DNA of 37,508 nt from an uncultured Gammaproteobacteria bacterium (GCA_964451485.1 CAYVIA010000004.1:1-37508); one strand, 5' to 3'; counted from the first letter of the stretch, positions 11,258-33,686 are shown. Notes: generated by a model from the letters alone, not told the origin. Numbers and translations: made by a program.

Positions 11258-12271
11258 TCATGCCCGGCGCCTCAACGCTCTGGCGATTTTATATAATTGA
11301 TAGTAAAAACCGTCGAATATCAAGTCATAGGTACCCGGATACTGCCGTTCACCCCCCCCGAAACCGCGCTTAAACCTTGTTACGCCCGGCCATTTATTAT
11401 CGTCGATGCCGTAAAAATCGTAAAACCCGTATCCCGACTCTTTGGCCAGGCGGATAACGTGCCATTGCAGTAAATACGGAGCCATCACGTTGCGGTACCG
11501 GCTGGCAGAAGCGCCGTGCATGTACGTTGCCGTATCACCGAAAAACGCGATAATATTGCCGGCGATCACTTTGTTTTCATATTCGGCCAGGTATAGTTTT
11601 ATCGCCAGATCATCCCGGCGCGCCGGCGTGGAAGTATGAATTCCGATCATTTTACGGTAATGCTCCCGGGTATGCGTTCGAAAACCATCCCTTTCTTTCG
11701 TCTCCCGCATCAATCGCCAAAAACTCTCGAAATCATCAACGCTCCCTTCCCTGACCGCAACTCCCTTCCTCTCCGCCAGCCGGGTATTATACCTCGTTTT
11801 CTGGCGCATGTTTTTGAGCAACTCTTTTTCCTGCGGGGCTAAATCCAGAATCAAGGTCTTGCTCGGCTGCACGTCGATAGTTTTTGTTAGCTGGCAGCCG
11901 GTAGCTGGCAGCCGGTAGCTTGGTTCAAAGCGTAAAAAGATTACTTTCTCGTCTTTTGCCATTCTTCCGATCTCATCCAATAAAAAATTCAAACATTCCA
12001 TTCGTAATTCGTAATTTTTAATTCGTAATTGATCCATCGCCGGTCCGCACGGACAATAAAAATAAGCTCTGCCCAGGGGCAGGCCCGTTCTTATCAAAGT
12101 CGCGGCCGCCAATATTTTTCCACCGTCATCCGCTACGGCCAGACGTCTGACATCACGTCCGTTTGCCCGCTGGAATTCTCCCCACCCCCATGACTCTGCA
12201 AACCGGCTATATCTTTGACTGCCGACAAATTTATTATATTGTTCTTTTTCCGTTATATTGATTATTTTCAT
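11258..12271 (-). CDS. FemAB/FemX-family peptidoglycan aminoacyl(peptidyl)transferase
   Basis: 337 aa. The N-terminal FAESWGWGEFQ and C-terminal YLLQWHVIRLAKESGYGFYDFYGI...GVTRFKRGFGG patterns are typical of the FemAB family. Confidence 0.85.
   Translation of the reverse strand: MKIINITEKEQYNKFVGSQRYSRFAESWGWGEFQRANGRDVRRLAVADDGGKILAAATLIRTGLPLGRAYFYCPCGPAMDQLRIKNYELRMECLNFLLDEIGRMAKDEKVIFLRFEPSYRLPATGCQLTKTIDVQPSKTLILDLAPQEKELLKNMRQKTRYNTRLAERKGVAVREGSVDDFESFWRLMRETKERDGFRTHTREHYRKMIGIHTSTPARRDDLAIKLYLAEYENKVIAGNIIAFFGDTATYMHGASASRYRNVMAPYLLQWHVIRLAKESGYGFYDFYGIDDNKWPGVTRFKRGFGGGERQYPGTYDLIFDGFYYQLYKIARALRRRA
11889..11920. repeat. 14-nt tandem repeat (AGCTGGCAGCCGGT x2.3) inside the femX-like CDS
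   Basis: Direct reading: 11889-11902 and 11903-11916 are identical, followed by a partial third copy. Encodes YRLPATGCQL in frame. Confidence 0.9.
12001..12031. repeat. heptamer tract (TTCGTAA x3, one copy separated by TTTTTAA) inside the femX-like CDS
   Basis: Sequence is ATTCGTAATTCGTAATTTTTAATTCGTAATT. Encodes QLRIKNYELRM on the minus strand. Confidence 0.9.
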
Positions 12272-12856
12272 CTATCTGCCTAACTTCTTCAGCGCCTCCC
12301 TGACTCTCTCTCCGCTGTCTTTAACGCCCGTACCGACCCGGCTTAAGGCCTCCCTGGCCTGGCCGAGGGAATAGCCAAGGGCCATAAGCGCGTCTATCTC
12401 GTCACCGCCGGCAACCACGTTCCCGCTTTTTCCGTCGGCCGTGCCCGGCAACGATAAACGGGACATTTTATCCCGCAATTCGAGCACTACCCTTTCTGCC
12501 GTTTTTTTGCCAATGCCGGAAACCTTGACCAGCAGGGACGAATCGCCGCCGGCAATCGATGCGCGCAGGTCGTCCACGTCTGCCATCGACAAAACGGCCA
12601 ACGCCGACTTCGGCCCGATGCCGCTGACCGAGAGCATCAGCTCGAACATCTCCAGCTGCTCCGCCGACCTGAACCCGTAAAGCACGCTTGCATCCTCGCG
12701 CACGTGATGATAAATATAAATTTCCGTCGGTTGTCCCGCGTCGAGTTCCGCGTATTGGGATGCGCTAACGATCACTTTGTAGCCGACATCATTCACCCTG
12801 ACGACGACATAGCCCGTGCCCTTATATAAAACTTTACCCGATAAAAAAGCAATCAT
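12272..12856 (-). CDS. ruvA: Holliday junction branch migration complex subunit RuvA
   Basis: 194 aa. N-terminal OB-like MIAFLSGKV..., two HhH motifs (VSGIGPKSALAVL, VSGIGKKTAERVVLEL), C-terminal domain III. Confidence 0.9.
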   Translation of the reverse strand: MIAFLSGKVLYKGTGYVVVRVNDVGYKVIVSASQYAELDAGQPTEIYIYHHVREDASVLYGFRSAEQLEMFELMLSVSGIGPKSALAVLSMADVDDLRASIAGGDSSLLVKVSGIGKKTAERVVLELRDKMSRLSLPGTADGKSGNVVAGGDEIDALMALGYSLGQAREALSRVGTGVKDSGERVREALKKLGR

Positions 12857-12859
12857 AGA

Positions 12860-13696
12860 TTATTTCCCCAGCGTTTTCTTTATCTTCTCCACGATCTCTT
12901 CGGTGGTAAAATGCGCCTTAACCAGATAATCGTTGGCCTTCATGTCCATGGCTTTTTTGATGTCATCTTCCTGCCCCAGATTGGAAAGCATGATGACCGG
13001 AATTTCCATAATCTCCTTATTCTTATGGGTGCGGATCTGGTGAAGAATCTGGAAACCGTCGATAGCCGGCAAAATGATATCTAAAAGCACGATATCCGGT
13101 TTAATTTCCTCTATACTGTTCATGGCCTGCTCCCCGTCAATCGCTTCATAGACGGACATGCCTTCTTTAGTCAATTTTTTACTGCAAATCTCCCGCAGAA
13201 AAGCGTCATCCTCGACCAAAAGAACCTTTATGCCCAAACTCTTGACGCTTCCGTCTTCTTTCGGCTTGATGGCAGCCGTGTGGGCGGGATTTTTCGGGGG
13301 TACGCCGCCGTTACCGAGACAATCTTTGACCTTGCCCAAAACATCAAGGGGGCTGAATTCGGTTTTTATCAGATGGTCAACGGCTCCCAATTTTTTGGTT
13401 TTTTCGATCTCGACCGGCTGCCCGGAGTTGGAGATAATAATCACCGGCGTTTTATTGCCGTCTTCGTTCAGTTTCTCGAGAACCTCATAACCGTCCATCT
13501 TGGGCATAACGATATCCAGCAAGATCAAATCCGGCTTCCATGAATTTATCATCTTATAACCCTCTTCGCCGTCTCCGGCGGCGGCCACTTCGTAATTTTC
13601 TTTTCGGAGTTTGGCCACCAATAACTCCATCAGGGACTGCTCGTCCTCGATAATCAATATCTTTTGTCCCTTGGACGCATTATTTTCGCTACTCAT
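12860..13696 (-). CDS. tandem-receiver (REC-REC) response regulator without an output domain
   Basis: Two CheY-like domains. REC1: ILIIEDE...PDLILLDIVMPKMDG...DHLIK. REC2: VLLVEDD...PDIVLLDIILPAIDG...DYLVK. Both keep the acidic pocket, phospho-Asp and Lys. No HTH or enzymatic domain is present. Confidence 0.9.
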   Translation of the reverse strand: MSSENNASKGQKILIIEDEQSLMELLVAKLRKENYEVAAAGDGEEGYKMINSWKPDLILLDIVMPKMDGYEVLEKLNEDGNKTPVIIISNSGQPVEIEKTKKLGAVDHLIKTEFSPLDVLGKVKDCLGNGGVPPKNPAHTAAIKPKEDGSVKSLGIKVLLVEDDAFLREICSKKLTKEGMSVYEAIDGEQAMNSIEEIKPDIVLLDIILPAIDGFQILHQIRTHKNKEIMEIPVIMLSNLGQEDDIKKAMDMKANDYLVKAHFTTEEIVEKIKKTLGK

Positions 13697-13736
13697 ATGA
13701 TTTTTCTTAGATTATAATTTTTAAAAATATATAAAA

Positions 13737-15437
13737 TTATACTTCCTTTTTCACCGGCAATGTAATCGTCATCTCCGTTCCCTTGCCCTCCTCGCTCCGG
13801 CAGGAGATAGTGCCATGATGTTCATCGACGATATTTTTAGCGATAAACAGTCCCAACCCCGAACCCTCCGTTTGCATGCGTACGACGTTGTCGGCCCGGA
13901 AGAATTTCGTGAAAAGCTTATCTCTGGCCTTCGCGGGAATGCCCACGCCGTTATCTTTGATCTTTATCTCCAGAGATTTCTTCCCGCCCCTGACGTCGAT
14001 TCTGATCGTACCCGATTCCGGAGTGTACTTGACCGCGTTCTCCAGTAAATGCCTGATGGCGATATCCATCTTCTCGGCATCCATATAAATATCGGGCAGC
14101 TCCGATTCGAGATTAACGATCAGGCGGATCTTCTTGCTTTTCGCCTGATCGGAAAAATCTTTGAGAATCGGGCCCAAAACCGCATCAGGCTCCTCTTTTC
14201 TGAATTCGTAACCGAATTTTCCTTCTTCGATCCGGGAAACATACAGCATCTCGTTGATCAGGTTGATTACCCTCTCATTGCTGAAATATCCGTTCCATAA
14301 AATTTTCTTCTGTTCCTCGTTCAATTCGCCCGCGTCTCCGTCCAGCACCATCTTTACCGACCATTTTATGGCCGACAGCGGCGTTCTTAGCTGATGGGCG
14401 GCGATGGAAATGAATTCCGATTTAAGCATATCAATCATTTTTTCTCTCGTCAAATCATAAAATATTTTCATGTAGCCGTAGCAAACGCCCTTTTCATCGC
14501 GCACGGGCGCCGTCATCACTTTATAAACCGTCTCCCCCCGATTATATTTCGTAATACCTATTCTGAAAGGATTTCTCGTTTCTTCTTTCGCGGATGAAGA
14601 CGGAATCTTGCCGGCCTTAATGACTACCTCTTCTATGGTAAGCCCGGGATTATCGCCCGCTTCGACTTCCTGTACGCTAAAATCGACTTTTTTTATTATT
14701 TCGCTAAAACCCTCGAAGGAAAAACGATCTCCGGCCAAATCGACCCGCCGTCCCAAATCCTTGTCCGACAAACGAAACACTCTTCTCGCCTCCGGATTCA
14801 ACAACATAATGCGCCCGCCGTTGTCCACGACGATTACCGGATCGAGAAAGTTTGAAATTATGGCCGCTGTCTTATTCTTTTCCTTTTCGATCTTTTCCTT
14901 GCCCGATTTCACGTCCTCAAGCACCTTAATCAAAACTTTCTGCGCTTTTTCCAGCTCCTCGGTTCTCTCCCTGACCTTATCTTTCAGGCCATTCTGTAGC
15001 TTTTTCAAATCGGTAATGTCGGAAAGGGCCAAAAAATATCCAACCACTTCCCTTTTTATGTCCCGCCTTAAGGTGGCGGATACGGATACGTAAATAATAT
15101 CGCCCCGCTTGGTCATGAATTCCATCTCTTTCTGCCGGACTTCCCCTTTGGCGTGCAACGCGCGAATTAAATTATTGATCTTTTTTTTATCCCTGAAAAA
15201 AAATTCTACTTTCCGGCCGACCGCATCCATTTCGTCATATCCGCTCAATTTTCTAAAAGCGTTATTGGCGTCCACGATAATATTAACCGGCGTTACCATG
15301 CAGACAGGCATGGGCAAAAAGACGGAAAATTCTCTGATATAACTTTCGAGCTCCCGTACGTCTTCGATGTCTTCAATGTCGGGTAATTCGCCGTTTTTCG
15401 TTACATTTTTTTTCATGATGTTTTGAATGCGGGTCAT
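13737..15437 (-). CDS. cytoplasmic PAS-domain sensor histidine kinase (HisKA + HATPase_c)
   Basis: 566 aa with no hydrophobic N-terminus. H-box SEFISIAAHQLRTPLSAIKW, N-box ENAVKYTPE, G-boxes DNGVGIP and EGSGLGLFI. PAS-like segments lie upstream. Confidence 0.9.
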   Translation of the reverse strand: MTRIQNIMKKNVTKNGELPDIEDIEDVRELESYIREFSVFLPMPVCMVTPVNIIVDANNAFRKLSGYDEMDAVGRKVEFFFRDKKKINNLIRALHAKGEVRQKEMEFMTKRGDIIYVSVSATLRRDIKREVVGYFLALSDITDLKKLQNGLKDKVRERTEELEKAQKVLIKVLEDVKSGKEKIEKEKNKTAAIISNFLDPVIVVDNGGRIMLLNPEARRVFRLSDKDLGRRVDLAGDRFSFEGFSEIIKKVDFSVQEVEAGDNPGLTIEEVVIKAGKIPSSSAKEETRNPFRIGITKYNRGETVYKVMTAPVRDEKGVCYGYMKIFYDLTREKMIDMLKSEFISIAAHQLRTPLSAIKWSVKMVLDGDAGELNEEQKKILWNGYFSNERVINLINEMLYVSRIEEGKFGYEFRKEEPDAVLGPILKDFSDQAKSKKIRLIVNLESELPDIYMDAEKMDIAIRHLLENAVKYTPESGTIRIDVRGGKKSLEIKIKDNGVGIPAKARDKLFTKFFRADNVVRMQTEGSGLGLFIAKNIVDEHHGTISCRSEEGKGTEMTITLPVKKEV

Positions 15438-15468
15438 CTATACATCCTGAAAAGATTATGACCCCTTA

Positions 15469-16092: not shown

Positions 16093-16133
16093 ACCATTGA
16101 TATTAAAATAAACTTATAAAATAAAAAAATCTT

Positions 16134-16745: not shown

Positions 16746-16757
16746 AAAATTGCTTAC

Positions 16758-20246: not shown

Positions 20247-20248
20247 AT

Positions 20249-20276
20249 GAGTTATGAGTTACGAGTTACGAGTTCG
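20249..20276. repeat. four tandem heptamers (GAGTTAT GAGTTAC GAGTTAC GAGTTCG) filling the htpX-pepA spacer
   Basis: Direct reading. The tract runs from 2 nt after the pepA ATG (20244-20246) to the htpX stop (20277-20279). Confidence 0.9.
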
Positions 20277-21227: not shown

Positions 21228-21315
21228 AAGCCGGCTCTGCTTCGCTGATTTTTCTCCAGTGGCGAATGGAGTTAGAATGCGCCAAGTCAAAAAATCAGCG
21301 AAGCAGAGCCGGCTT
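21228..21315. repeat. perfect 26-bp inverted repeat with a 36-nt structured loop in the lemA-htpX spacer
   Basis: 21228-21253 AAGCCGGCTCTGCTTCGCTGATTTTT is the exact reverse complement of 21290-21315. The loop contains its own CTCCA/TGGAG stem. Confidence 0.9.
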
Positions 21316-21370: not shown

Positions 21371-21934
21371 TTAAAATTTAACCTTCACCGCTTCCCTTTC
21401 CTTCTCATCCGCTACTTCGAAATACTCGCGCGCCTTAAAGCCGAGCATACCGGCCATGACGTTGGTCGGGAAGACCTGCAGTTTCGTATTGAAGTCGCGC
21501 ACGTTGCCGTTATAGAAGCGGCGGGCGGCCATGATCTTGTCTTCCGTATCGGTCAGTTCGCGCTGAAGTTCGAGAAAATTCTCGTTGGCTTTCAGATTCG
21601 GATAATTCTCCGCCAGGGCGAAGATCGATTTTAACGTGGCAGACAGGGCGTTCTCCGCTTGCGCCTGTTGTTTGGCATTGCCCGATTTCTGGGCGTTAAT
21701 GGCGTTGGCGCGGGCCTGCGTCACGCTGTCGAGCGTTTGCCGCTCATGCGCCGCGTATCCCTTGACTGTTTCCACCAGATTGGGAATAAGGTCATAACGC
21801 CGCTTGAGCTGAACGTCGATATCGCTCCAGGCCTCATCCACGCGATTCTTGAGGCGGATAAGGCCGTTGTACATGCCGATGACGACGATTGCCAACAGCA
21901 CGAGCACCCCGAGCACGACGAGTATTGGTGTCAT
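21371..21934 (-). CDS. lemA: LemA family membrane protein
   Basis: MTPILVVLGVLVLLAIVVIGMYNGLIRLKNRVDEAWSDIDVQLKRRYDLIPNLVETVKGYAAHE is a canonical LemA N-terminus. I prefer the ATG at 21934 over the ORF-track start at 21988, which reads through a heptamer tract. Confidence 0.85.
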   Translation of the reverse strand: MTPILVVLGVLVLLAIVVIGMYNGLIRLKNRVDEAWSDIDVQLKRRYDLIPNLVETVKGYAAHERQTLDSVTQARANAINAQKSGNAKQQAQAENALSATLKSIFALAENYPNLKANENFLELQRELTDTEDKIMAARRFYNGNVRDFNTKLQVFPTNVMAGMLGFKAREYFEVADEKEREAVKVKF

Positions 21935-21950
21935 AAATTTTGTTACGTAA

Positions 21951-21988
21951 CATGAAACATGAAACATGAAACATGAAGCATGAAACAT
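21951..21988. repeat. heptamer tract (CATGAAA x3, CATGAAG, CATGAAA, CAT) just upstream of the lemA start
   Basis: Direct reading, preceded by GTTACGTAA at 21942-21950. Confidence 0.9.
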
Positions 21989-24292: not shown

Positions 24293-27200
24293 TCAGATCT
24301 TTTTAATCCCGACCCAAACCGCCCTGCCCTCAATCTTCACTTCTTTGCTTAAATCCGTATCTTCCGTTTTTCTCTCCTCGATTTTTTCAGCCAGCGTATC
24401 TATAGAGATATCTCTTGAGAAGGTCTTGATCGCCGTTTTGATTTCCTCATCTTCGGCCTGCCAAAACGCCATGATCCTGTCCGCGATCGTCAGTCCCGCG
24501 TTCTTGCGCATATTGTTGATAAACCGCACAAGTTCGCGCTTGATGCCTTCCCGCTTCAACTCCGGCGTTATCGTCGTATCCAATTCCACGGCCAATTCTC
24601 CCGCGCCTTTTTTCGATCCTACCGTCTTCACGTTAAGTTCATCTTTAATTAAACTCTCGTATTCCTGTCGTAATTCGTAATTCATAATTCGTAATTCGCC
24701 AAGCGGCTGCCGCACTTTTATTCCCGCTTCATCGCGCTTGGCCAGTCCCATTTCTACGATTTTGCGTACATCCGCCATTTCTTTTAATAATTTTTCGTCT
24801 ACCTCCCCGGCCACCGGCCACGCTTCCAAATGCACGCTCTTTTTATCGTCTTTAAAATCGTTTCCCGTCACTTTCTGCCAGATTTGCTCCGCCAAAAACG
24901 GCATGAACGGCGCCATCACTTTCGATAATTCGATCAGCACATAACCGGTCGTTTCCAACGCGGCCTTCTTGTCGGTTTCATTTTCACTCTTAAATCTGTC
25001 GCGCGAACGCCTGATGTGCCAGGTCGACAGATCGTTGATGAATTCCTCAATCGGCCTGATGGCTTTCGGGATGACATAGCCGTCCATATTCTTCGCCACC
25101 TCTCCGATAAGCTGGTTCAATCTTGCAATAATCCATTTATCCAGAATATTTTCACTCTTGACGCTTGATTTTTGATCTTCGGATATTAAAAGACGCCGAT
25201 TTAAATCTTTGACATAATCCTTTGTGCTGACATCATCACCTCCGATTCTCGATTTTTTCTCCGCATACATATCATAAAACTTATACACATTCCAAAGTAT
25301 CATCTCCACTTTCCGCAGAACCTCCTTAACGCCGCTTTCGGCGAAATTCAAATTCTCGGCCATGAGCACGGGCGAGGCCAGAAGGTAGTAGCGCATGGCG
25401 TCCGCGCTGTACTTTTCGAATAATTCAGTGGGGTCGGGATAATTATTAAGACGCTTCGACATCTTCTGCCCGTCCTCGGAGAGCACGATGCCATTGACGA
25501 TACAATTATCGAATGACTGTTTATTGAAAAGCGCCGTGGATAGTACCATCAGGGTATAAAACCACCCCCGCGTCTGGTCCACGCCTTCGGCGATAAACTG
25601 GGCCGGGAAATTTTTTCCTTTGGCCGGATCGAAATTAGGCAATGGTTCTCCGAGATAATGCATCTGCGCGTAAGGCATTGACCCGGACTCGAACCAGCAG
25701 TCCAGCACTTCCGGGATACGCTTCATCGTACCGCCGCATTTGCATGACCAGATTATTTTATCGACGAATTGCTTATGCAGATCATCGACCTTCTTGCCGC
25801 CCAAATCCGCCAATTCTTTTCTGGATCCAACCACCGTTGTTTCCCCGCATTTATCGCAAATCCAGACGGGCAGGGGCGAACCCCAGTAACGGTTGCGGCT
25901 AATAGCCCAATCGCGCGCCTGATCCAGCCACTTGCCGAAACGCCCTTCCTTAATATGTTCCGGCACCCAATGCACATTTTTATTATTGTCAACGAGGTTG
26001 TCTTTCAATTTTGTTACCTCCACGAACCAGGATTCGGTGGCGTAATTGAGAAGCGGGGTGTCGCAACGCCAGCAATGCGGATACGAGTGCTCATATTCTT
26101 CGCTCTTAAACAGTTTGCCGTTTTTTTCGAGCCAAGCCACGATTCTTTTGTCCGTGGCCTTGGTATCGTCCTTGGGCTTTACTTCCTCGCCCGGCCAATC
26201 CTTGACCTCCGGCTTGAACCGCCCGGTGCCGTCCACGTGCTGGATAAAAGGCAGATTTTTTTCCTTGCCCAGGTTCATATCGTCCTCGCCGAAGGCCGGC
26301 GCGATATGCACCACGCCCGTGCCTTCTTCGGTCGTCACGAAATCCGCCGCGTAAACTTTCCATCCGTTCTCTGAATTTTCAAGCGGTTCGACCGCTTCGC
26401 GAGCGGTCGAACCGCTACGCGCATAATAATCGAACAGCGGCTCATAATCAAGCCCCATCAGATCTTTGCCTTTTATTTCTGCTAATAATTTCATTTCACC
26501 TTTATCGTCTTTATTTTTTTCATAGTCCTCTTTGGAAACGATATAAATCCCGTCGGATATTTCCGGATGATTTTTTAAACTAAACACCACGTAATCAATT
26601 TCTTCTCCCACTGCCAGCGCTACATTCCCGATTAGCGTCCAGGGAGTAGTAGTCCACGCCAGCACATACACATTATCCTTATCCGTCAATTTAGAATTCG
26701 TTGATTCGTTGTTGATTCGTAGATTCGTGGGTTCTTTAAGGCGAAATTTAACAGTACAAGATATATCCCGTATATCCTTATACCCCTGCGTAACCTCGAA
26801 ATTGGACAAAGTCGTGCCGCAGCGCGGACAGATATGCATGGCCTTATAACCGCGGTAAATCAAGCCCTTGTCCCAGAGGGACCTAAACACCCACCAGATC
26901 GACTCCATATAACCCGGGTCCATGGTCTTATAATCGTTTTCCATATCCACCCAGCGGCCGATGCGGCGGATCGTCTTTTTCCATTCTTCCGCGTAGCGCA
27001 TGACTATGCTCCGGCAATATTCGTTGAATTTCTCTACGCCGATTCTTTCGATATCATTCTTGTCGGCGAGCCCGAGTTCCTTTTCCGCCAGATTCTCGAC
27101 CGGCAGGCCGTGGCAGTCCCAGCCCCATTTCCGCTCCACGCGGTAGCCGCGCATAGTCCAATACCGCGGCACCGCGTCCTTCATGATCGAAGCCACGAGA

Positions 27201-27388: not shown

Positions 27389-28063
27389 TTAAATCTGAGA
27401 AAAAATATACTTCTTCGCTTTTGCCATTTTCTGTTCGTTTATTCCCAGCGCCTTGACGCTCGTTCTCGCTTTAAGCAGGCCGACAAATTCGCGGTGATAA
27501 CTTCCGAGCCGCCACGCCTTAACCATGCGCATATATTCTTCCCAGTCGAACTCAGGGAGAATTGCCAGGCCGAAAATGTCAAGTTCATCTTTCATACCCT
27601 TGACCGAACCGCGGCGATTCTTCCAGGCAAAAAGCTTCAAAAGCAGCAAGGCCTCAAGCCGCGGCACCTTAAAACCGTTTTTGACCGCATGGTCTTTGGC
27701 TACGGCGGCGATGGGCGCGCCGAGCGAGGAATAATGATCGAGGTAAATATCGATATCGAATTCCCCGGTCTTAATCTCGTATTTTTTAAGCCGGTCATTC
27801 TTATAAACATCGTACGAATCCTTCATTTTTCCCAATCCGTCATAGCCGATAATAATGTCGATATCTTTCGATTTCAACGCGCGGCAGTAAAGCCAGACCG
27901 CCCAGCCGCCGATCAGGATAAAATCGAATTTTCGATTGAACTCCTTCAGAAAATCGAAACTCTTTTTCGTGATTAAGCCGTGATAATATTCCATAATATT
28001 TTTAAAGCTTGTATGATTATTCTCCGGCCGGCTTAATTTTACTGATTTTTTGACTTGGCGCAT
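27389..28063 (-). CDS. minimal nucleotidyltransferase-fold protein (AbiEii/DUF1814- or DUF2204-like), putative toxin
   Basis: 224 aa. GG-x13-DID motif (LIGGWAVWLYCRALKSKDIDIII), a downstream acidic EFDIDIY, and KLFAWKNRRGSVKGMKDELDIFGL resembling the K...R...KD..D..L helix of AbiEii-type NTases. GGAG lies 7 nt upstream of the ATG. Confidence 0.55.
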   Translation of the reverse strand: MRQVKKSVKLSRPENNHTSFKNIMEYYHGLITKKSFDFLKEFNRKFDFILIGGWAVWLYCRALKSKDIDIIIGYDGLGKMKDSYDVYKNDRLKKYEIKTGEFDIDIYLDHYSSLGAPIAAVAKDHAVKNGFKVPRLEALLLLKLFAWKNRRGSVKGMKDELDIFGLAILPEFDWEEYMRMVKAWRLGSYHREFVGLLKARTSVKALGINEQKMAKAKKYIFSQI

Positions 28064-28153
28064 TTATAGCTCCAATCGCCACCGGAAAAAAATCAGTGAA
28101 ATTAAACCGGCCCTTTCTGGATTTAAACGTAGATACGTAAATTTTTCTTTTAT

Positions 28154-28812: not shown

Positions 28813-28882
28813 ATTTTTACGCGCAAATCCTTCTAATATGCTATTATTTTAACCCCGAAAACATTAAAATGTCAAAGTGTAT

Positions 28883-28908
28883 GAAAAAACCGCCCAAATA
28901 AATAGGCG
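28883..28908 (-). terminator. intrinsic terminator after the small membrane protein gene
   Basis: The minus strand reads CCGCC-TATTTATTTG-GGCGG followed by TTTTTT. Confidence 0.6.
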
Positions 28909-28960
28909 GATTGTTTAAGGCTATTTTTGCGCAAAGAACAGGCTGCGTTACTTCCCAGCC

Positions 28961-29188: not shown

Positions 29189-29238
29189 TTTTACACCCTC
29201 CTGGTTATTTTTTGGTAAATTTTAAAAGGGCAATAAGC

Positions 29239-29679
29239 TTATTTCGCCAAAACACCTAATTTTTCGAACCAGTACCTCCACACCGGCTCCCATTTTAATT
29301 TTTTCATTTCCTCCGGCGTATACCAGCCGATGGATTTCGACGCTTCGGGATTATTCCTGACTTTTCCCTTTACCGTACACCGATACAAATACCAATAATG
29401 GGACGAAATCCCGACCCGGCACCGATTCCACTCCACCCCTTCCTCGAAAAGCAGGTAATGAGCTTTTACTTTCAAGCCGCTTTCATCGAGAATTTTACGT
29501 AAAAGCGCTTCCTCAGGTTCTTCCCCTTCATTAATATGGCCGGCTAACCCGGCAAACCCGAGCGGCTCCATGTCGCGGTCTAAGAGCAAATACTTGCCGT
29601 CACGCTCAATCACGGCGCCGACGGTAAAATGCATCAATGCGCCTTTCGTACTTTGTCTTAATTTCGGTGTATCGGCCAT
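29239..29679 (-). CDS. NUDIX hydrolase
   Basis: Nudix box GHINEGEEPEEALLRKILDESGL. I prefer the ATG at 29679 (MADTPKL...) because AAGGAGG lies 6 nt upstream. The ORF-track start at 29748 would abut uvrB. Confidence 0.8.
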   Translation of the reverse strand: MADTPKLRQSTKGALMHFTVGAVIERDGKYLLLDRDMEPLGFAGLAGHINEGEEPEEALLRKILDESGLKVKAHYLLFEEGVEWNRCRVGISSHYWYLYRCTVKGKVRNNPEASKSIGWYTPEEMKKLKWEPVWRYWFEKLGVLAK

Positions 29680-29712
29680 ATAAGCCTCCTTCTTGTAATG
29701 ATCGATTAATGT

Positions 29713-29741
29713 TTGCTTAATCTTAAAGAATATACTATAAT
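29713..29741 (+). promoter_or_regulatory. candidate uvrB promoter (TTGCTT-17 nt-TATAAT) only 9 nt from the ATG, implying a leaderless or near-leaderless mRNA
   Basis: TATAAT at 29736-29741, ATG at 29751, no Shine-Dalgarno sequence between them. Confidence 0.35.
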
Positions 29742-29750
29742 CTGTCAAGT

Positions 29751-31574
29751 ATGCAGAAATTTAAATTACAATTAAGGTTCAAGCCCGCGGGAGATCAACC
29801 TGCCGCTATTACCAAGCTGGCGGCCGGCCTGGAAAAAGGCGTGCATGAGCAGACGCTTTTAGGCGTGACCGGCTCGGGCAAGACCTTTACCATGGCCAAC
29901 GTAATCGCGGCCGCGCAGAAACCGACGCTTATCATTTCCCACAATAAGACGCTTGCCGCCCAGCTATACGGCGAATTCCGCCGCTTTTTTCCGGACAATG
30001 CCGTACACTATTTCGTCTCCTATTACGACTATTACCAGCCCGAGGCCTATATTCCGCAAACCGATACCTATATCGAAAAAGAGGCGACCATCAACGAAGA
30101 AATCGACCGCCTGCGCCACGCTTCCACCCAGTCGCTCATCAACCGCCGGGACGTCATTATCGTGGCAAGCGTTTCCTGCATCTACGGCATCGGCGAGCGG
30201 GCCGACTACGAGGCCATGAGCGCGAAATTTTCCGTTGGCCAGAAAATCAGAAGGAACGAACTCCTGCGCCAGCTGGTAAAAATCCAATATGAACGAAACG
30301 ACACCGCTTTCGTACGCGGCCAGTTCCGGGTCAGGGGCGAAACGATCGATATTCATCTGGCCACGGGCGAGGGACTGATAAGGATAATCATGAATGGAAA
30401 CACGATTGGAGAAATATACTCGGCACAGGTGCGGCCGGGCAAGGATTTGCCGGCGCTCTCTCTGGGCAGAAAAACTACGCTCGCTAAACTCGACGATATT
30501 GTTATCCTGCCGGCCAAGCATTTCATGACCCCCGACGAAAGGATGAGCGTCGCCCTCGTCAATATCAGGGCGGAACTTAAAGACAGGCTGGCGGAGCTCA
30601 AAAGGCGGGGAAAAGAGGTCGAGGCCTACCGGCTCGAGAAAAAAACCAACTACGACCTCGAGATGATGGAGGAGATCGGTTACACGAACGGCATCGAGAA
30701 TTATTCGCGCCACCTTTCCGGCCGCAAACCGGGCGAGCCGCCGGCCACGCTCATGGATTTTTTCCCCGAAGATTTTCTCTTGTTCATCGACGAGTCGCAC
30801 GTAACGTTGCCGCAGGTCCGCGGCATGTTCGCCGGCGACCGCTCGCGCAAGGAAACCCTGATCGAATTCGGCTTCCGGCTCCCGAGCGCTCTCGATAACC
30901 GGCCGCTCAATTTCCCCGAATTCAGGAAAAAAATCAACCAGGTAATCTATACGAGCGCTACGCCCGGCGCTTACGAAATCTCGCATTCCGCGCAAGTGGT
31001 GGAGCAGATCGTGCGGCCGACCGGACTTCTCGATCCATCCGTGGAGGTGCGGCCGTCAACGGGCCAGATTCCGGACCTCATCGGGGAAATCGAAAAGACC
31101 GTAGCTCGAGGACAGCGCGTGCTCGTTACTACTTTGACCAAACGCATGGCCGAAGAGCTTTCCGACTATCTTCTTGATAAAGGCGTAAAGGTCCATTACC
31201 TGCACAGCGAGATCAGCACGCTTGAGCGGGTCGATATCCTCAGGGACCTGCGCTCCGGCAAATACGACGTACTCGTGGGCATCAACCTCTTGCGCGAAGG
31301 CCTTGATCTTCCCGAGGTGGCGCTCGTCGCCATCCTAGACGCGGATATGGCCGGCTTTTTAAGGAACGAAACCTCGCTTATCCAGACCATGGGCCGCGCC
31401 GCCCGCCACGCCGAAGGCCGCGTCATTATGTACGCGGACAGGATGACGCCGGCCATAAACTATGCCGTGCGCGAAACCGAACGCCGCCGCAAGGTACAGA
31501 TGGCCTACAATAAAAAACACGGCATCACGCCGCAAACGATCCGAATGGGATTTCACGATAGTATTGTCGGATAA
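29751..31574 (+). CDS. uvrB: excinuclease ABC subunit B, lacking the C-terminal UVR domain
   Basis: 607 aa. [11 protein letters not shown], Walker [36 protein letters not shown]. Ends shortly after [13 protein letters not shown], where canonical UvrB continues for about 60 aa. Confidence 0.95.
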
Positions 31575-31689
31575 ATCAATAATTGCCTTTCTCTCCTTAC
31601 TGCCTCCGTCAGGCCCTCCCCTGGCGTGTTTATTCGGCATAGCCGTTTCCGCCGTTCGCCACCATGTCTGCAGAACCGACGCTCTCGCA

Positions 31690-31713
31690 CCCCTCCCCCG
31701 GGGAGGGGATTTT
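31690..31713 (+). terminator. intrinsic terminator for uvrB
   Basis: CCCCTCC-CCCGG-GGAGGGG followed by ATTTT. Confidence 0.5.
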
Positions 31714-31746
31714 AAAAAACCGCCGGCTTTCGCGCCAGCGGGTTTG
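31714..31746 (-). terminator. intrinsic terminator for uvrC
   Basis: The minus strand reads CCGCTGGC-GCGAAA-GCCGGCGG (one G-U pair) followed by TTTTTT. Confidence 0.55.
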
Positions 31747-31758
31747 TTTATATAATGC

Positions 31759-33141
31759 TTATTTATAATAACTTTTCTTCCGTAACAACCGATGGTAGCC
31801 GATGGCGAAGCGGTGCGCTTCGTCGCGCACTCTTTTGATAATATGCAGGGCCGGCGAAGCCAGGGGCAGCTCAAGCGGCTTTTTCTCGCCGGGGAAAAAA
31901 ATCTTGTCCGGAGCCATAGCCGAACGCAGGCCTTCGCCCTTGGATATGGCAATCACGGGGATATCCAACCCAGCTTTTTTAATTATCCTAACGGCAACAT
32001 TCAGCTGGGCCTTGCCGCCGTCCACTATAATCAAATCCGGCTCTCGCCAAGCTAATTCCCGCGTATGGGCGGCTGTTGACCGGAGCGTATTCATCCCGCC
32101 ACCTGTTTCATGTTTCATGTTACGTGCTACATGCCTGAATCTTCTCTCTAAAACCTCCGCGAGCATGCGCACGTCGTTGGCTTCACCTTCACCGATGCGG
32201 ATTTTGAATTTCCGGTACTGGCTCTTGTCCGGCTCGCCGCCGGAAAAAACCACCATGGAACCGACCGCTTCGCGCCCGAAAATATTGGAAATATCATAGC
32301 CCTCGATCCGCTCCGGCGCGCGGGCGAGGGTTAGCACTTTCGCCAGCTCCACCACGTCCGCCTCGTATTTCTCCCCCACGCCGATAATATTGGCATGATC
32401 CAGGACCGCCCTCATATTGATCAGCTGCCGCTTGGCATGACTGACCTTCTCTTCCAGGCCCAGGCGACCTTCACTATCCTCGTCCAATTTCCCAATTTCC
32501 AATTTCCAATTTCCAATTTCTTTTTCAATGTCTCTGACAATCCTCCCCTTCTTCCCTTCCAAAAACAAAATAATCGGCCTAATCACCTTCTCCCGGTAAT
32601 CCTTAAGCGGATACTTTCCCCCGCAAACGCCGCTGCATCGCCCGATCTGGGCGTAAAAACAGATCTTCTCCCCTACCCGCCGCTCTGTGCAATACGGCCA
32701 GATCTTGCGGATAACCTTAAGCGTCTGCCTGACCGCGAAAGCGCCGGTGAACGGCCCGAAATATCGTCCCGATTTATCTATCTTGCGGGTGGCGAACACG
32801 CCGGGAATTTCATCCTCGGTCGAAACCTTGATATAGAGGAAACGCTTGTCGTCGCGCAGGACCACGTTGAAAGATGGCTGATACTTTTTTATCAAATTGG
32901 CTTCCAGGAGCAAGGCCTCGATCTCGCTCTCTACTTCGATCCAGTCGACGGCCGCGATCTCGCGCATCATGGCGCTTTTCGCCGGCGTATGGCTGGCGCC
33001 TTTCTGCCAATAAGACAAAACGCGGCTCGCTAAATTAGCCGCTTTGCCCACGTAAATGATCTTCCCGCCCTTATCCTTGAATTGATACGAGCCCGGAGCC
33101 TTGGGGATATTCAAATTTTTAACATCATCTAAACTTAACAT
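31759..33141 (-). CDS. uvrC: excinuclease ABC subunit C, short form without the C-terminal (HhH)2 domain
   Basis: 460 aa. GIY-YIG (GSYQF...IIYVGKAANLASRV), Cys cluster GRCSGVCGG, endonuclease domain ending RVRDEAHRFAIGYHRLLRKK, then the stop. Confidence 0.92.
   Translation of the reverse strand: MLSLDDVKNLNIPKAPGSYQFKDKGGKIIYVGKAANLASRVLSYWQKGASHTPAKSAMMREIAAVDWIEVESEIEALLLEANLIKKYQPSFNVVLRDDKRFLYIKVSTEDEIPGVFATRKIDKSGRYFGPFTGAFAVRQTLKVIRKIWPYCTERRVGEKICFYAQIGRCSGVCGGKYPLKDYREKVIRPIILFLEGKKGRIVRDIEKEIGNWKLEIGKLDEDSEGRLGLEEKVSHAKRQLINMRAVLDHANIIGVGEKYEADVVELAKVLTLARAPERIEGYDISNIFGREAVGSMVVFSGGEPDKSQYRKFKIRIGEGEANDVRMLAEVLERRFRHVARNMKHETGGGMNTLRSTAAHTRELAWREPDLIIVDGGKAQLNVAVRIIKKAGLDIPVIAISKGEGLRSAMAPDKIFFPGEKKPLELPLASPALHIIKRVRDEAHRFAIGYHRLLRKKSYYK
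32104..32133. repeat. heptamer tract (TGTTTCA x2, TGTTACG, TGCTACA) inside uvrC
   Basis: 32104-32125 is identical over 22 nt to the minus strand of 21945-21966 upstream of lemA. Encodes HVARNMKHETG. Confidence 0.9.
32484..32520. repeat. five tandem CCAATTT heptamers (one extra C) inside uvrC
   Basis: Direct reading. Encodes EIGNWKLEIGKL. Confidence 0.9.
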
Positions 33142-33196
33142 AACAAATACGCTTAATAGTATTATTAACCTACAACGAAATTAAAAATTAAGCAAA

Positions 33197-33224
33197 TTAT
33201 CTTCCCCTTTTTATCTTCCCCTTT
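33197..33224. repeat. 14-nt tandem duplication (TATCTTCCCCTTTT x2) upstream of uvrC
   Basis: Direct reading. Intergenic. Confidence 0.9.
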
Positions 33225-33225
33225 T

Positions 33226-33347
33226 TGTCATGCCGGATCGCAATCCGGCATCCATGGTCGGGCGGCAGGAGTGATGGATGGTAAACTTCGGTAATAAAAA
33301 AAATTCCTGCGGCTTAACCCTGGATCCCGGCTCACGGGCCGGGATGA
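33226..33347. repeat. 122-bp element bounded by two related GC-rich hairpins in inverted orientation (MITE/REP-like)
   Basis: Left end is GTCATGCCGGAT-CGCA-ATCCGGCATCC (33226-33252). Right end is GGATCCCGGC-TCACGG-GCCGGGATGAC (33321-33347). Both ends are GTCAT...ATCC-type, with compensatory stem changes. Confidence 0.5.
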
Positions 33348-33352
33348 CAAAG

Positions 33353-33390
33353 GCAAAATAAAACAACCACCGCAAATAGACATGGTTGTT
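33353..33390 (-). terminator. weak intrinsic terminator after the ferredoxin gene
   Basis: The minus strand reads AACAACCA-13 nt-TGGTTGTT followed by TTATTTT. The stem is AT-rich. Confidence 0.4.
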
Positions 33391-33402
33391 TTATATAACT
33401 TA

Positions 33403-33579
33403 TTACTTGATGCTGATCGCCTGCACCGGACAACTTTCTTCCGCGCCCTTGGCGCAACCTGACTCTTCCTGGCTGACCGGTTCGGCCTTGCCATCATCGC
33501 CCAATTTGAAAACCTTCGGGCAAACGGCCGCGCAGGTGCCGCAGCCGATGCAAGTGTCTTTGTTGACGGAAATTGACAT
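33403..33579 (-). CDS. small single-cluster [4Fe-4S]/[3Fe-4S] ferredoxin (58 aa)
   Basis: MSISVNKDTCIGCGTCAAVCPKVFKLGDDGKAEPV...CAKGAEESCPVQAISIK is collinear with Thermotoga/Pyrococcus-type 60-aa ferredoxins. I prefer the ATG at 33579 over the ORF-track start at 33669. Confidence 0.85.
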   Translation of the reverse strand: MSISVNKDTCIGCGTCAAVCPKVFKLGDDGKAEPVSQEESGCAKGAEESCPVQAISIK

Positions 33580-33658
33580 AGTGTTATACGCTTTATTTAT
33601 AAATTTCTTAAACGATATCCCGCATTTATCAAGAAATAAAACGATTAGTTTGTAATTT

Positions 33659-33686
33659 TCAATAATCAATGATCAATTATCAATAA
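33659..33686. repeat. four tandem heptamers (TCAATAA TCAATGA TCAATTA TCAATAA) upstream of the ferredoxin gene
   Basis: Direct reading. Intergenic. Confidence 0.9.

What the first reader, a model, noticed from the sequence alone, without database searches (positions are those of the whole stretch)
11889..33686. Window-wide family of tandem repeats with 7-nt (or 14-nt) period, sitting in frame inside conserved genes as well as between genes
- I count at least ten short tracts with a 7-nt period or its double.
- Inside CDSs:
  - femX-like: 11889-11920 (14-mer x2.3) and 12001-12031 (TTCGTAA).
  - ileS: 24668-24698 (TCGTAAT) and 26695-26728 (GATTCGT).
  - uvrC: 32104-32133 (TGTTTCA) and 32484-32520 (CCAATTT x5).
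- Intergenic:
  - 20249-20276 (GAGTTAC x4).
  - 21951-21988 (CATGAAA x5).
  - 33197-33224 (14-mer x2).
  - 33659-33686 (TCAATNA x4).
- Several units are related by a shared TTACG/CGTAA core.
- Seven is not a multiple of three. Three units therefore encode a fixed 7-aa peptide, and unrelated proteins end up with the same peptide: LRIKNYELR in the FemX-like protein and LRIMNYELR in IleRS.
- Any copy-number slippage would frameshift essential genes. Classical contingency-locus phase variation therefore seems unlikely for the intragenic copies.
- In-frame colonisation of housekeeping genes is reminiscent of Rickettsia palindromic elements. These tracts are tandem rather than palindromic, and I know of no described mechanism or function for them.
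Basis: partly seen in the sequence, partly recalled or inferred. Interest (0 to 1): 0.7.

Follow-up and report, generated by a model that had tools for sequence, protein, structure and literature searches.

The report
Seven-base repeats inside essential genes
This uncultured Patescibacteria (CPR) genome carries short runs of 7-base tandem repeats between genes and also in frame inside essential genes, at spots where related species carry other 7-base repeats, so a known kind of "stuttering" DNA persists where a single slip should be lethal.

Summary
Tandem Repeats Finder finds eight period-7 and two period-14 tracts in 37.5 kb. A run scan gives 4 strong period-7 runs against 0.0 in dinucleotide shuffles, and none at any period from 4 to 21 other than 7, 14 and one run at 19.

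The contig is from a Patescibacteria (CPR) MAG. The tracts are heptanucleotide simple-sequence repeats, a class already described (cyanobacterial STRR, Mrazek's long SSRs, TAACTGA repeats). So "no described kind" is wrong.

What appears new is their behaviour inside genes:
- The tract sites in IleRS and FemX are hot spots shared by many CPR orthologues.
- At the same IleRS codons, different species carry perfect (GAATTAC)n, (GAATTTC)n, (CAATTTT)n or (AAGTTAG)n.
- In several tracts the base that would create an in-frame stop is among the few mismatches, and in three orthologue tracts it is the only one that changes the protein.
- Codons inside the tract are conserved beyond the synonymous background.
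- Some tracts are loop insertions. Others replace native structure with no length change.

In two Dolichospermum strains the same unit differs by +21 nt in frame, or by one unit at a site where the gene is broken. That shows slippage occurs.

Best reading: DNA-level slippage and out-of-register conversion, filtered by selection on the protein. The length-neutral homogenisation step is inferred, not shown. This is a new variant of a known kind.

The parts
12000..12030 (-). FemX-like gene, site 1. Sense-strand tract AATTACG AATTAAA AATTACG AATTACG encoding QLRIKNYELR (aa 81-91).
   Evidence: TRF period 7, 4.4 copies. Codons read. The AF2 model (pLDDT 95) places it in a loop plus the N-cap of helix 87-107. 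Many orthologues carry heptamer-coded peptides at the same site.
11888..11920 (-). FemX-like gene, site 2. 33 nt of alternating heptamers AGCTACC/GGCTGCC (TRF 14-mer x2.4, 100%) encoding SYRLPATGCQL (aa 118-128).
   Evidence: It has the same 11-aa length as the FKIQNSKFKI-type peptides of orthologues, so it is a replacement and not an insertion. It lies in the loop between strands 110-115 and 128-131.
24668..24698 (-). ileS C-terminal tract GAATTAC GAATTAT GAATTAC GAATTAC GA encoding ELRIMNYELR (aa 894-904).
   Evidence: It aligns without gaps to orthologues and to human and yeast IleRS. In the model it is beta-strand 893-899 plus a turn, with local pLDDT about 87. It uses TTA and CGA twice each, although these make up 12% of Leu codons and 7% of Arg codons in this window.
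26695..26728 (-). ileS N-terminal tract: four copies of ACGAATY at irregular spacing (8, 11, 8 nt) encoding TNLRINNESTNS (aa 218-229). A decayed heptamer tract.
   Evidence: It lies in a lineage-specific insertion loop that most orthologues lack. The model shows a low-confidence loop after strand 204-214.
32483..32520 (-). uvrC tract 1: GAAATTG x4, one extra G, then GAAATTG. Total 36 nt, in frame, encoding EIGNWKLEIGKL (aa 208-220).
   Evidence: TRF 5.3 copies with 6% indels. Codons read. It sits at the tip of the UVR helical hairpin, where only the closest homologues have extra residues (P0241 IKNYELKIKNF, P0242 ELRIKKEELRIEK).
32056..32133 (-). uvrC 26-aa insertion (aa 337-362). Its 5' part (32104-32133) is a (CATGAAA)n tract in which both would-be in-frame TGA codons read CGT and GGT.
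   Evidence: It shares 22 identical nt (ACGTAACATGAAACATGAAACA) with the lemA 5' tract, in opposite orientation (I11). No significant RNA fold: z = 0.45.
20247..20276 (-). The entire 30-nt spacer between the M48 peptidase stop and the M17 aminopeptidase ATG: CGAACT CGTAACT CGTAACT CATAACT CAT. The unit is TAACTCR and it abuts the start codon.
   Evidence: The unit differs by one base from the TAACTGA repeats reported just upstream of start codons in Beggiatoaceae (PMC4679880).
21945..21988 (-). 5' region of lemA: (ATGTTTC)5.7 on the sense strand, ending 11 nt upstream of the probable start ATG at 21934.
   Evidence: Alignment with four orthologues puts the real start about 17 codons inside the mechanical ORF. 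The syntenic relative L123 has a degenerate xAATTAx heptamer tract abutting its lemA start.
33197..33226 (-). Perfect 14-mer x2.1 (AAAGGGGAAGATAA on the sense strand), 55 nt upstream of the uvrC start and next to GC-rich palindromic motifs.
33659..33687 (-). (TTATTGA)4.1 on the sense strand, about 80 nt upstream of a small ferredoxin ORF (33405-33578).
   Evidence: The ferredoxin is syntenic in L123 and L126.

Best explanation
The tracts are heptanucleotide microsatellites (7-nt simple-sequence repeats of the STRR/long-SSR type) in a Patescibacteria genome.

Proposed mechanism:
- A DNA-level process creates them and keeps their units alike. This is replication slippage, plus out-of-register template switching or gene conversion within the array. 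Bacterial replication appears to favour 7-nt units.
- In intergenic spacers the arrays are free to change.
- Inside genes they survive only at a few permissive sites (surface loops, a helical-hairpin tip, one edge beta-strand of IleRS) and only in the stop-free orientation.
- There the ribosome reads the unit in all three frames, producing a 7-aa peptide of the form x-[L/F]-x-[I/V]-x-[N/S]-x.
- Selection on the protein keeps the net length a multiple of three, removes the base that would make a stop, and fixes TT at unit positions 4-5. DNA-level homogenisation keeps the remaining unit positions identical.
- Once seeded, a site stays a hot spot for very long periods, and the unit changes in concert from lineage to lineage.

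Shown: enrichment, positions, orthologous hot spots, concerted unit differences, stop editing, excess codon identity, and real slippage of the same unit in cyanobacterial strains.

Inferred: that homogenisation in essential genes proceeds by length-neutral conversion or by +/-21-nt events, and that the tracts have no function of their own.
For: 1. Period 7 is specifically enriched.
- Window: 4 strong runs against 0.0 in shuffles, and none at periods other than 7, 14 and one run at 19.
- Ten CPR loci: 11 against 0.07. Eight of these are the ascertained ileS/FemX sites and three are elsewhere.
- 1 Mb of loci from other phyla: 484 period-7 TRF rows against 50 (period 6), 87 (period 8) and 136 (period 9).

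2. At the same IleRS codons, independent assemblies carry perfect tracts of different units:
- L121, L122 and L128: GAATTAC.
- L126: GAATTTC.
- L125: CAATTTT.
- L127: AAGTTAG.
- All are in one register, xA[A/G]TTxx.

3. The base that would create an in-frame stop is among the few mismatches.
- L127: TAG->AAG.
- L124 (AGTATTA)n: TAA->CAA.
- L124 (AAGTTAA)n: TAA->CAA, with the same T->C also present 14 nt away at a synonymous site.
- Window uvrC: both would-be TGA codons are altered (alongside two other substitutions).

4. Codon evidence.
- Codon identity inside the tract is 8/8 to 10/10, against a background of 0.44-0.64 (P about 0.001-0.01 per pair).
- Given the peptide, heptamer-compatible codons have probability 8e-6 to 5e-4 from codon usage.

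5. Exact amino-acid self-matches of at least 4 residues peak at lag 7.
- IleRS set: 25 against 0-7 at other lags.
- FemX set: 31 against 0-4.
- The matches cluster at the window's tract sites.
- A phylogenetically broad UvrC set shows almost no such peak: 7 against 1-7.

6. Length differences come in 7-aa steps. FemX P0166 and P0234 differ by ELRITNY.

7. Direct evidence of slippage. Two Dolichospermum strains compared in one methyltransferase gene show (GAATTAC) arrays of 5 vs 8 units at two sites, in frame. At a third site they show 5 vs 6 units with further small sequence differences downstream; the reading frame is lost there and RefSeq annotates the gene as two CDS.

8. (GAATTAC)n copies in more than 120 genomes have no conserved flanks.

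9. The polymerase-slippage explanation for the heptamer excess is already in the literature.
Against: - Slippage by one or two units breaks the frame. Slippage by three units cannot homogenise units that sit in different codon phases. Perfect 7-nt periodicity in essential genes therefore needs a length-neutral conversion step that I infer but did not observe.
- Perfect conservation at synonymous sites is equally what selection on a DNA or RNA function would give.
- The same few units recur in distant lineages and phyla. Unit classes at the IleRS site are phylogenetically interspersed: nearest neighbour in the same class 17/53, permutation mean 7.
- A 22-nt identity between the uvrC insertion and the lemA 5' tract suggests copying between loci.
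- There are no population or read data for this organism.
- Outside the ascertained hot spots, relatives have far fewer tracts than this window. Something about this genome is therefore unexplained.
Confidence: 0.6

Rival explanations
1. The arrays are functional cis-elements. They would be phased binding sites on DNA or mRNA for a factor with a 7-nt footprint (for example a cold-shock-type OB-fold protein, or a translational regulator). They would control translation initiation when placed just upstream of start codons, and be tolerated or exploited inside coding regions.
For: - Two intergenic tracts occupy the place of a ribosome-binding site. The 20247-20276 tract fills the whole spacer up to the M17 ATG, and the lemA tract ends 11 nt before the start.
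- L123 also has a heptamer tract abutting lemA.
- TAACTGA repeats, one base different, sit just upstream of start codons in Beggiatoaceae and were proposed to be regulator binding sites. CspB binds heptamer repeats (PMC4679880).
- Synonymous sites inside the tracts are conserved.
Against: - Orthologous sites carry units differing at 1-3 of 7 positions. A sequence-specific reader would therefore have to change with them.
- At least five unrelated units occur in this one window.
- Intragenic tracts sit at protein-permissive sites rather than at any fixed distance from gene starts.
- With all genes on one strand and short spacers, "upstream of a start" is nearly unavoidable.
- No Rfam family matches.
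Confidence: 0.17
2. The tracts are written or inserted by an active, templated process. They would be very small mobile or copied elements, analogous to the cyanobacterial small dispersed repeats or to Rickettsia palindromic elements, rather than growing in place.
For: - 22 nt, including a degenerate flanking unit, are identical between the uvrC insertion and the lemA 5' tract.
- uvrC carries a discrete 26-aa insertion.
- Tracts in the Dolichospermum methyltransferase all have the same size (35 nt) and are absent from Nostoc homologues at three of five sites.
- 21-nt GC-rich hairpin-like inserts sit inside heptamer hot spots of orthologues: L129 CCCTCCAATTCGGCGGGCAAG and L130 CTGCCTGCCGGTAGGCAAGGT. 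From my recollection of the abstract of Elhai et al. 2008, this recalls SDRs embedded in tandem heptamers.
Against: - No conserved ends, target duplications or flanks in more than 120 loci.
- The IleRS C-terminal tract and FemX site 2 show no length change relative to orthologues, or to human and yeast IleRS.
- Neighbouring arrays in other genomes differ by single substitutions, as expected for growth in place.
- No associated enzyme gene is evident in the window.
Confidence: 0.13
3. The periodicity is a by-product of protein-level selection for a beta-hairpin-like peptide in an AT-biased genome, or of chance or low complexity. There would be no DNA-level process.
For: - The IleRS site is a native beta-strand plus turn with hydrophobic residues at alternate positions.
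- AT-rich codons for E-L, K/R-I and N-Y all contain AATTA, which gives some cryptic 7-nt periodicity.
Against: - Heptamer-compatible codons for the peptide have probability 8e-6 to 5e-4 from codon usage.
- Unconstrained peptide positions follow the heptamer translation exactly.
- Intergenic tracts show the same periodicity.
- Shuffles give 0.0.
- In three orthologue tracts the only protein-changing mismatch is at the would-be stop.
Confidence: 0.04
4. The tracts are assembly or sequencing artefacts of a metagenome-assembled contig.
For: Repeats can be mis-assembled. Several (GAATTAC)n hits in other genomes lie at contig ends.
Against: - Reading frames are intact through all six intragenic tracts.
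- Tracts occur at orthologous codons in independent assemblies from NCBI, JGI, ENA and Logan.
- The same unit occurs in finished genomes of cultured cyanobacteria.
- Arrays are shorter than a sequencing read.
Confidence: 0.02

Closest known systems
Heptanucleotide long simple-sequence repeats. These include the STRR sequences of heterocystous cyanobacteria (Mazel et al. 1990) and the long SSRs of Mrazek, Guo and Shah 2007.
   Same: - Head-to-tail 7-nt units.
- Several unrelated units per genome.
- Period 7 specifically over-represented.
- The very unit GAATTAC is abundant in Nostocales, including Tolypothrix/Calothrix PCC 7601.
- Slippage is the proposed origin.
   Different: - The described cases are overwhelmingly intergenic. 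In my 1-Mb sample, 21% of tracts lie in open frames of at least 600 nt, against 69% of random intervals.
- Here 6 of 10 tracts are in frame inside conserved or essential genes, at hot spots shared across a superphylum.
- I found no report for Patescibacteria.
TAACTGA direct repeats of marine Beggiatoaceae, some cyanobacteria and Bacteroidetes (MacGregor 2015, PMC4679880).
   Same: - Heptamer direct repeats of 2-6 copies lying within a few nt upstream of start codons, in a fixed orientation.
- The same unit is shared by distant phyla without an evident transfer mechanism.
- The translation logic (one orientation has stops, the other gives a 7-aa peptide) was already noted there.
- The window's 20247-20276 tract (TAACTCR x4, abutting an ATG) differs by one base.
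   Different: - The unit is not identical.
- That paper treats coding-region copies as rare and terminal.
- It describes no orthologous hot spots and no concerted unit change.
Rickettsia palindromic elements (RPE).
   Same: Short repeated DNA tolerated in frame inside housekeeping genes, adding peptide segments at surface-exposed positions.
   Different: - As I recall, RPEs are about 100-150-nt palindromic, dispersed elements with conserved sequence.
- These tracts are 27-40-nt tandem arrays without self-complementarity or conserved ends.
- Two of them replace native sequence without changing its length.
Small dispersed repeats (SDR) of Nostoc (Elhai et al. 2008, Genome Res 18:1484; cited in PMC3116915).
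   Same: - From my recollection of the abstract, SDRs are 21-27-nt hairpin-forming elements often embedded in tandem heptamer repeats.
- CPR orthologues show 21-nt GC-rich hairpin-like inserts inside heptamer hot spots.
   Different: - The window's own tracts are plain tandem arrays.
- The GC-rich inserts were seen only in relatives and were not analysed as a family.
Phase-variable contingency loci, for example the 7-bp repeats controlling hmw1A in Haemophilus influenzae (PMC8262952).
   Same: - SSR slippage changes gene expression or the reading frame.
- The Dolichospermum methyltransferase shows this behaviour with (GAATTAC)n.
   Different: In the window the intragenic tracts are in essential or repair genes and are held in frame, so they cannot act as on/off switches.

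Membership tests
Heptanucleotide SSR (STRR / long SSR) | Tandem head-to-tail copies of a 7-nt unit, at least about 3 copies | tested here: met
   TRF gives eight period-7 rows with 2.1-5.7 copies at 83-100% matches.
Heptanucleotide SSR (STRR / long SSR) | Period 7 over-represented relative to chance and to neighbouring periods | tested here: met
   4 runs against 0.0 in shuffles, and none at any other period except 14 and one run at 19. 11 against 0.07 in CPR relatives. 484 rows against 50-136 for neighbouring periods in other phyla.
Heptanucleotide SSR (STRR / long SSR) | Predominantly intergenic location | tested here: not met
   6 of the 10 tracts in the window are inside ORFs. In other phyla only 21% lie in long open frames.
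Heptanucleotide SSR (STRR / long SSR) | Unit-number polymorphism between strains (slippage) | not testable with these tools
   No close relative of this genome is available: the IleRS cluster has 1 member and the next hit is 67-68% identical. The same unit does vary between Dolichospermum strains, 5/8 and 5/6 units.
Phase-variable contingency locus | SSR placed so that unit gain or loss switches a dispensable gene on or off | tested here: not met
   The intragenic tracts are in ileS, uvrC and a femX-like gene and are in frame. The status of the intergenic tracts is unknown.
Rickettsia palindromic element-like in-frame insert | Palindromic, hairpin-forming dispersed element with conserved sequence | tested here: not met
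   The arrays are tandem, not inverted. The uvrC insertion folds no better than shuffles, z = 0.45. Flanks are not conserved.
Rickettsia palindromic element-like in-frame insert | Extra in-frame peptide relative to orthologues, at a surface site | tested here: inconclusive
   Met for the uvrC tracts, the IleRS N-terminal tract and partly FemX site 1. Not met for the IleRS C-terminal tract and FemX site 2, which have the same length as in orthologues.
TAACTGA start-codon-proximal repeats | Unit TAACTGA | tested here: not met
   The unit here is TAACTCG/TAACTCA.
TAACTGA start-codon-proximal repeats | 2-6 direct copies within a few nt upstream of a start codon, forward orientation | tested here: met
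   The 20247-20276 tract has 4 copies, and the last unit runs directly into the M17 ATG.
Small dispersed repeats (SDR) in heptamer arrays | 21-27-nt hairpin element inserted within a heptamer array | tested here: not met
   Not present in the window's tracts. Candidate 21-nt GC-rich inserts were seen only in L129 and L130.

The most novel reading that the evidence does not exclude
Heptamer arrays would not be passive slippage products. A dedicated, widely distributed mechanism would write and maintain them, or they would have a function read at the DNA or RNA level. Candidate mechanisms are templated length-neutral "overwriting" or a tiny mobile element, possibly coupled to the 21-nt hairpin inserts. 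Either would explain three observations: identical units recur across phyla, synonymous sites stay perfect inside essential genes, and the same positions remain occupied throughout the CPR.
Probability: 0.12. Interest if true: 0.85.

Novelty: new variant of a known kind. Interest (0 to 1): 0.6.

Why it matters
Microsatellites are normally thought to be excluded from essential coding sequence unless their unit is a multiple of three. Here 7-nt arrays persist in frame in ileS, uvrC and a femX-like gene, at sites shared by many Patescibacteria.

They evolve in concert. The unit changes in all copies together, while selection edits out only the base that would make a stop. This gives a natural system for three questions:
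- How are tandem arrays homogenised when single-unit slippage is lethal?
- How much of a protein loop, or even a native beta-strand, can be dictated by a DNA-level process rather than by selection on the peptide?
- Why do bacterial genomes favour 7-nt units, which has been open since 2007?

Practical consequences:
- Recurrent peptides such as ELRITNYEL, EFRISNF, FSIFNFQ and KLKVKSQ in CPR proteins are repeat translations, not homology signals.
- Gene callers can be misled by them. The FemX gene on this contig is annotated at 234 aa instead of 337 aa.

Tried and rejected
- Larger mobile element. I aligned by eye the flanks of 139 (GAATTAC)>=3 occurrences in 122 loci and found nothing conserved.
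- Known RNA families and tRNAs. There are no Rfam hits at gathering thresholds and no tRNAs in the window.
- RNA structure of the uvrC insertion. It folds no better than shuffles, z = 0.45.
- A synthetic (ELRITNY)6 query. It returned almost only 30-75-aa spurious ORFs over long intergenic arrays, mostly from cyanobacteria. It was uninformative about real proteins.
- My first lag-7 peptide test was too strict for 4-5-unit tracts (windows of 8 with at least 7 matches) and found almost nothing. I replaced it with runs of at least 3 or 4 residues.
- A PDB sequence search for the Dolichospermum methyltransferase found nothing. Plasmid homologues were used instead.
- The full-length IleRS model was poor overall (pLDDT 57, 20-sequence alignment). 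Only its confident C-terminal part was used.
- Mrazek 2007 and Elhai 2008 are not held in the paper library. They are cited through papers that summarise or list them, and through my recollection.
- I ran no further search on strain variants, because the protein database shows no relative closer than 67-68%.

Full report
**What the window is.** Pfam scans identify, almost all on the minus strand:
- rpoC, rpoB, a Mur ligase, a FemAB-family transferase and ruvA;
- response regulators and histidine kinases;
- M17 and M48 peptidases, lemA, a PilT/T2SSE ATPase and a ThiI-like protein;
- a type-2 IleRS, uvrB (plus strand) and a short uvrC.

The IleRS protein of this exact 37,508-bp contig is in the public database. 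Its best relatives are 67-68% identical. Where hits carry a source name, almost all are named Patescibacteria, Falkowbacteria or Parcubacteria. The window is therefore a whole contig of a CPR metagenome-assembled genome with no close sequenced relative.

My own run scan finds 4 strong runs at period 7 and 4 at period 14. It finds none at any other period from 4 to 21, apart from one run at 19. One hundred dinucleotide-preserving shuffles give 0.00 and 0.01.

Reading the sequences confirms each tract, with these corrections:
- 26695-26728 holds four ACGAATY copies at spacings 8, 11 and 8, so it is a decayed array.
- 32104-32133 has 2.6 perfect units plus degenerate ones.
- The uvrC GAAATTG array contains one extra G. 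Five units (35 nt) plus this G make 36 nt, which is in frame.
- The FemX "14-mer" is alternating heptamers AGCTACC/GGCTGCC.

The shared peptide is real: LRIKNYELR in FemX and LRIMNYELR in IleRS.

**Is this a known kind of sequence?** Yes. Two papers summarise Mrazek, Guo and Shah (2007). That study found heptanucleotide repeats to be the most abundant long SSR class in most prokaryote genomes. It proposed that 7 nt matches the stretch of DNA held by the polymerase, which would favour slippage (PMC4679880 and PMC4692102).

Described examples are the STRR heptamers of Calothrix, GGGAATC in Xanthomonas, and TAACTGA in Beggiatoaceae, cyanobacteria and Bacteroidetes.

The hits include Nostocales and other cyanobacteria, Bacteroidota, Ignavibacteria, Acidobacteria, Chloroflexi, Planctomycetes and a few CPR. 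In those loci:
- Period 7 dominates the TRF output: 484 rows against 50, 87 and 136 for periods 6, 8 and 9.
- The flanks share nothing.
- Neighbouring arrays often differ by one substitution.
- Only 21% of period-7 tracts lie in open frames of at least 600 nt, against 69% of random intervals.

I found no paper linking heptamer repeats to Patescibacteria.

**What is unusual: the intragenic tracts sit at shared hot spots.**

*IleRS C-terminal tract (aa 894-904).*
- It aligns without gaps to 19 orthologues and to human and yeast cytoplasmic IleRS: PLGELRIMNY against PLKEIVVIHQ and PLKTLVILHS.
- In the confident C-terminal part of an AlphaFold model it is strand 893-899 plus a turn.
- It is therefore not an insertion.

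The DNA of orthologues from independent NCBI, JGI and ENA assemblies shows perfect heptamer arrays at exactly these codons:

| Locus | Array | Peptide |
|---|---|---|
| L121, L122, L128 | (GAATTAC)3.9-4.7 | ELRITNYEL... |
| L126 | (GAATTTC)4.9 | EFRISNFEFRI |
| L125 | (CAATTTT)4.1 | KFSIFNFQFS |
| L127 | (AAGTTAG)5.4 | KLEVRSKKLE |

All are in one register, xA[A/G]TTxx. This register fixes TTx (L/F) at codon 2, xTT (I/V) at codon 4 and AxT (N/S) at codon 6, which are the positions a strand-turn needs.

Across 120 orthologues the same peptide classes recur. They are phylogenetically interspersed: the nearest neighbour is in the same class in 17 of 53 cases, against a permutation mean of 7 and maximum of 16.

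*FemX.* An alignment of 120 orthologues shows the same unit families at both of the window's sites: ELRITNY, EFRISNF, FSIFNFQ, NYQLSII, KLEVRSK and FKIQNSK. One pair differs by exactly ELRITNY, which is 21 nt.

The FemX model (pLDDT 95) puts site 1 in a loop plus a helix N-cap, and site 2 in a loop between two strands.

*UvrC.*
- Tract 1 is at the tip of the UVR helical hairpin. Only the closest homologues have extra residues there, and these are again heptamer-like.
- Tract 2 is in a 26-aa insertion within a linker of variable length.

*Lag test.* Exact amino-acid self-matches of at least 4 residues peak at lag 7:
- 25 against 0-7 at other lags in the IleRS set;
- 31 against 0-4 in the FemX set;
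- the matches cluster at the window's tract positions.

A phylogenetically broad UvrC set shows almost no such peak.

**The DNA repeat, not the peptide, is primary.**
- Given the peptide ELRITNYEL, codon usage predicts heptamer-compatible codons with probability 8e-6 (window) to 5e-4.
- The window's tract uses TTA and CGA twice each, although they make up 12% of Leu codons and 7% of Arg codons.
- Between genomes, codon identity in the tract is 8/8 to 10/10, against a background of 0.44-0.64.

The base that would create an in-frame stop is among the few mismatches, and in three orthologue tracts it is the only one that changes the protein:
- L127: TAG->AAG.
- L124 (AGTATTA)n: TAA->CAA.
- L124 (AAGTTAA)n: TAA->CAA. 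Here the same T->C also appears 14 nt away at a synonymous GTT->GTC, as if the edited unit had been copied.
- Window uvrC (CATGAAA)n array: both would-be TGA codons read CGT and GGT, alongside two further substitutions in the degenerate upstream units.

A Dolichospermum contig (L115) carries a large DNA methyltransferase with five in-frame (GAATTAC)5 arrays, and a helicase with one more.

The orthologue on plasmid pAfl69 of a cultured Dolichospermum strain (82.5% identical) compares as follows:
- 8 units instead of 5 at two sites, which is +21 nt and in frame.
- 6 units instead of 5 at a third site, together with further small sequence differences just downstream. The reading frame is lost there, and RefSeq annotates the gene as two CDS.
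- Nostoc homologues lack the arrays at three of the five sites.

**Intergenic tracts.**
- The 30-nt spacer between the M48 stop and the M17 start consists entirely of TAACTCR units running into the ATG. This unit is one base different from TAACTGA, in the same start-proximal position described for Beggiatoaceae.
- The lemA array ends 11 nt before the probable start. The syntenic relative L123 has a degenerate xAATTAx array abutting its own lemA start.
- The other two tracts lie 55 nt and about 80 nt upstream of uvrC and of a small ferredoxin ORF.
- No Rfam family or tRNA overlaps any tract.

**Interpretation.** The best-supported account is a DNA-level slippage and misalignment process with a preference for 7-nt units, filtered by selection on the encoded protein. 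Arrays persist in genes only where the three-frame translation is tolerated. Frame and stop codons are policed by selection, and array-internal copying keeps the units alike. A site therefore remains occupied over long evolutionary times while its unit drifts in concert.

The weak point is mechanistic. One-unit slips break the frame, and three-unit slips cannot homogenise units that lie in different codon phases. A length-neutral, out-of-register conversion or template switch has to be postulated, and I could not observe it.

Three things keep the functional-element and active-writing rivals alive:
- the synonymous-site conservation;
- the recurrence of a few units across phyla;
- the 22-nt identity between the uvrC insertion and the lemA array.

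This window also carries more arrays than its relatives do outside the ascertained hot spots, and I cannot explain that.

**Verdict.** The finding is real and is not an artefact. It belongs to a known class, heptanucleotide SSRs. It shows a variant that I did not find described in the literature I could search: in-frame, concertedly evolving arrays at conserved hot spots in essential genes of Patescibacteria.

Noticed in passing
window 219-313 and 1504-1664: Two intergenic inverted arrays of a 9-nt unit (GGGATTnTT facing AAnAATCCC). The arms are 45-54 nt at about 80% complementarity. They flank the plus-strand TPP-enzyme ORF at 567-1499. This is a separate repeat class with period 9.
   Followed up: no
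window 21228-21315 and 28026-28112: Two related copies of an intergenic hairpin element of about 88 nt. One has a perfect 26-nt inverted repeat with a 36-nt loop. The second copy is 92% complementary and 84% complementary to the first (I6, I9, I2).
   Followed up: no
window about 33230-33350 (minus strand): GC-rich palindromic motifs (tgtcatcccggcccgtgagccgggatcc and ggatgccggattgcgatccggcatgacaaa) lie next to the 14-mer tandem repeat. From memory they resemble widespread REP-like hairpin repeats that translate to "GMTK"-type peptides.
   Followed up: no
window 33405-33578 (minus strand): An unlisted small ORF (58 aa, CxxCxxC pattern) between the response regulator and uvrC. It is probably a ferredoxin: ORFs of 57-58 aa with Fer4 Pfam hits occupy the same position in L123 and L126. 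Pfam gave no hit for the window copy at E<=0.001.
   Followed up: partly
window 11258-12271 (minus strand): The public annotation of the FemX gene on this contig (P0121) is 234 aa, starting downstream of the AATTACG tract. The 337-aa ORF aligns to orthologues from residue 1, so the annotated start is probably wrong.
   Followed up: partly
L115 417-4424 and 4924-7842; L131 201-4278: The Dolichospermum methyltransferase and helicase (a restriction-modification-like or other defence-like gene pair; this naming is my own reading, not tested) carry six in-frame (GAATTAC)n arrays. Between two strains, arrays differ by +21 nt at two sites. At one site they differ by one unit plus further small changes, the frame is lost, and the gene is split. 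This is candidate heptamer-driven phase variation of a methyltransferase.
   Followed up: partly
L129 about 12540-12560 (ileS) and L130 about 410-430 (femX): 21-nt GC-rich, partly self-complementary inserts (CCCTCCAATTCGGCGGGCAAG and CTGCCTGCCGGTAGGCAAGGT) sit inside AT-rich heptamer hot spots. They give peptides such as PSNSAGK and LPAGRQG. Similar peptides (PAGRQ, SAGKQ, ADPP) recur in many orthologues. This may be a second, hairpin-type mini-element.
   Followed up: partly
IleRS orthologue P0060, alignment A1 columns about 235-270: One orthologue has a 40-aa insertion (…VIASEAKQSQETADEF…) in the same variable loop that holds the window's N-terminal IleRS tract. From memory, it looks like the translation of a common palindromic repeat.
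   Followed up: no
window 31759-33141: uvrC here and in relatives is a short form (420-460 aa) that ends after the RNase H-like endonuclease domain. It lacks the C-terminal helix-hairpin-helix region of canonical ~600-aa UvrC.
   Followed up: no
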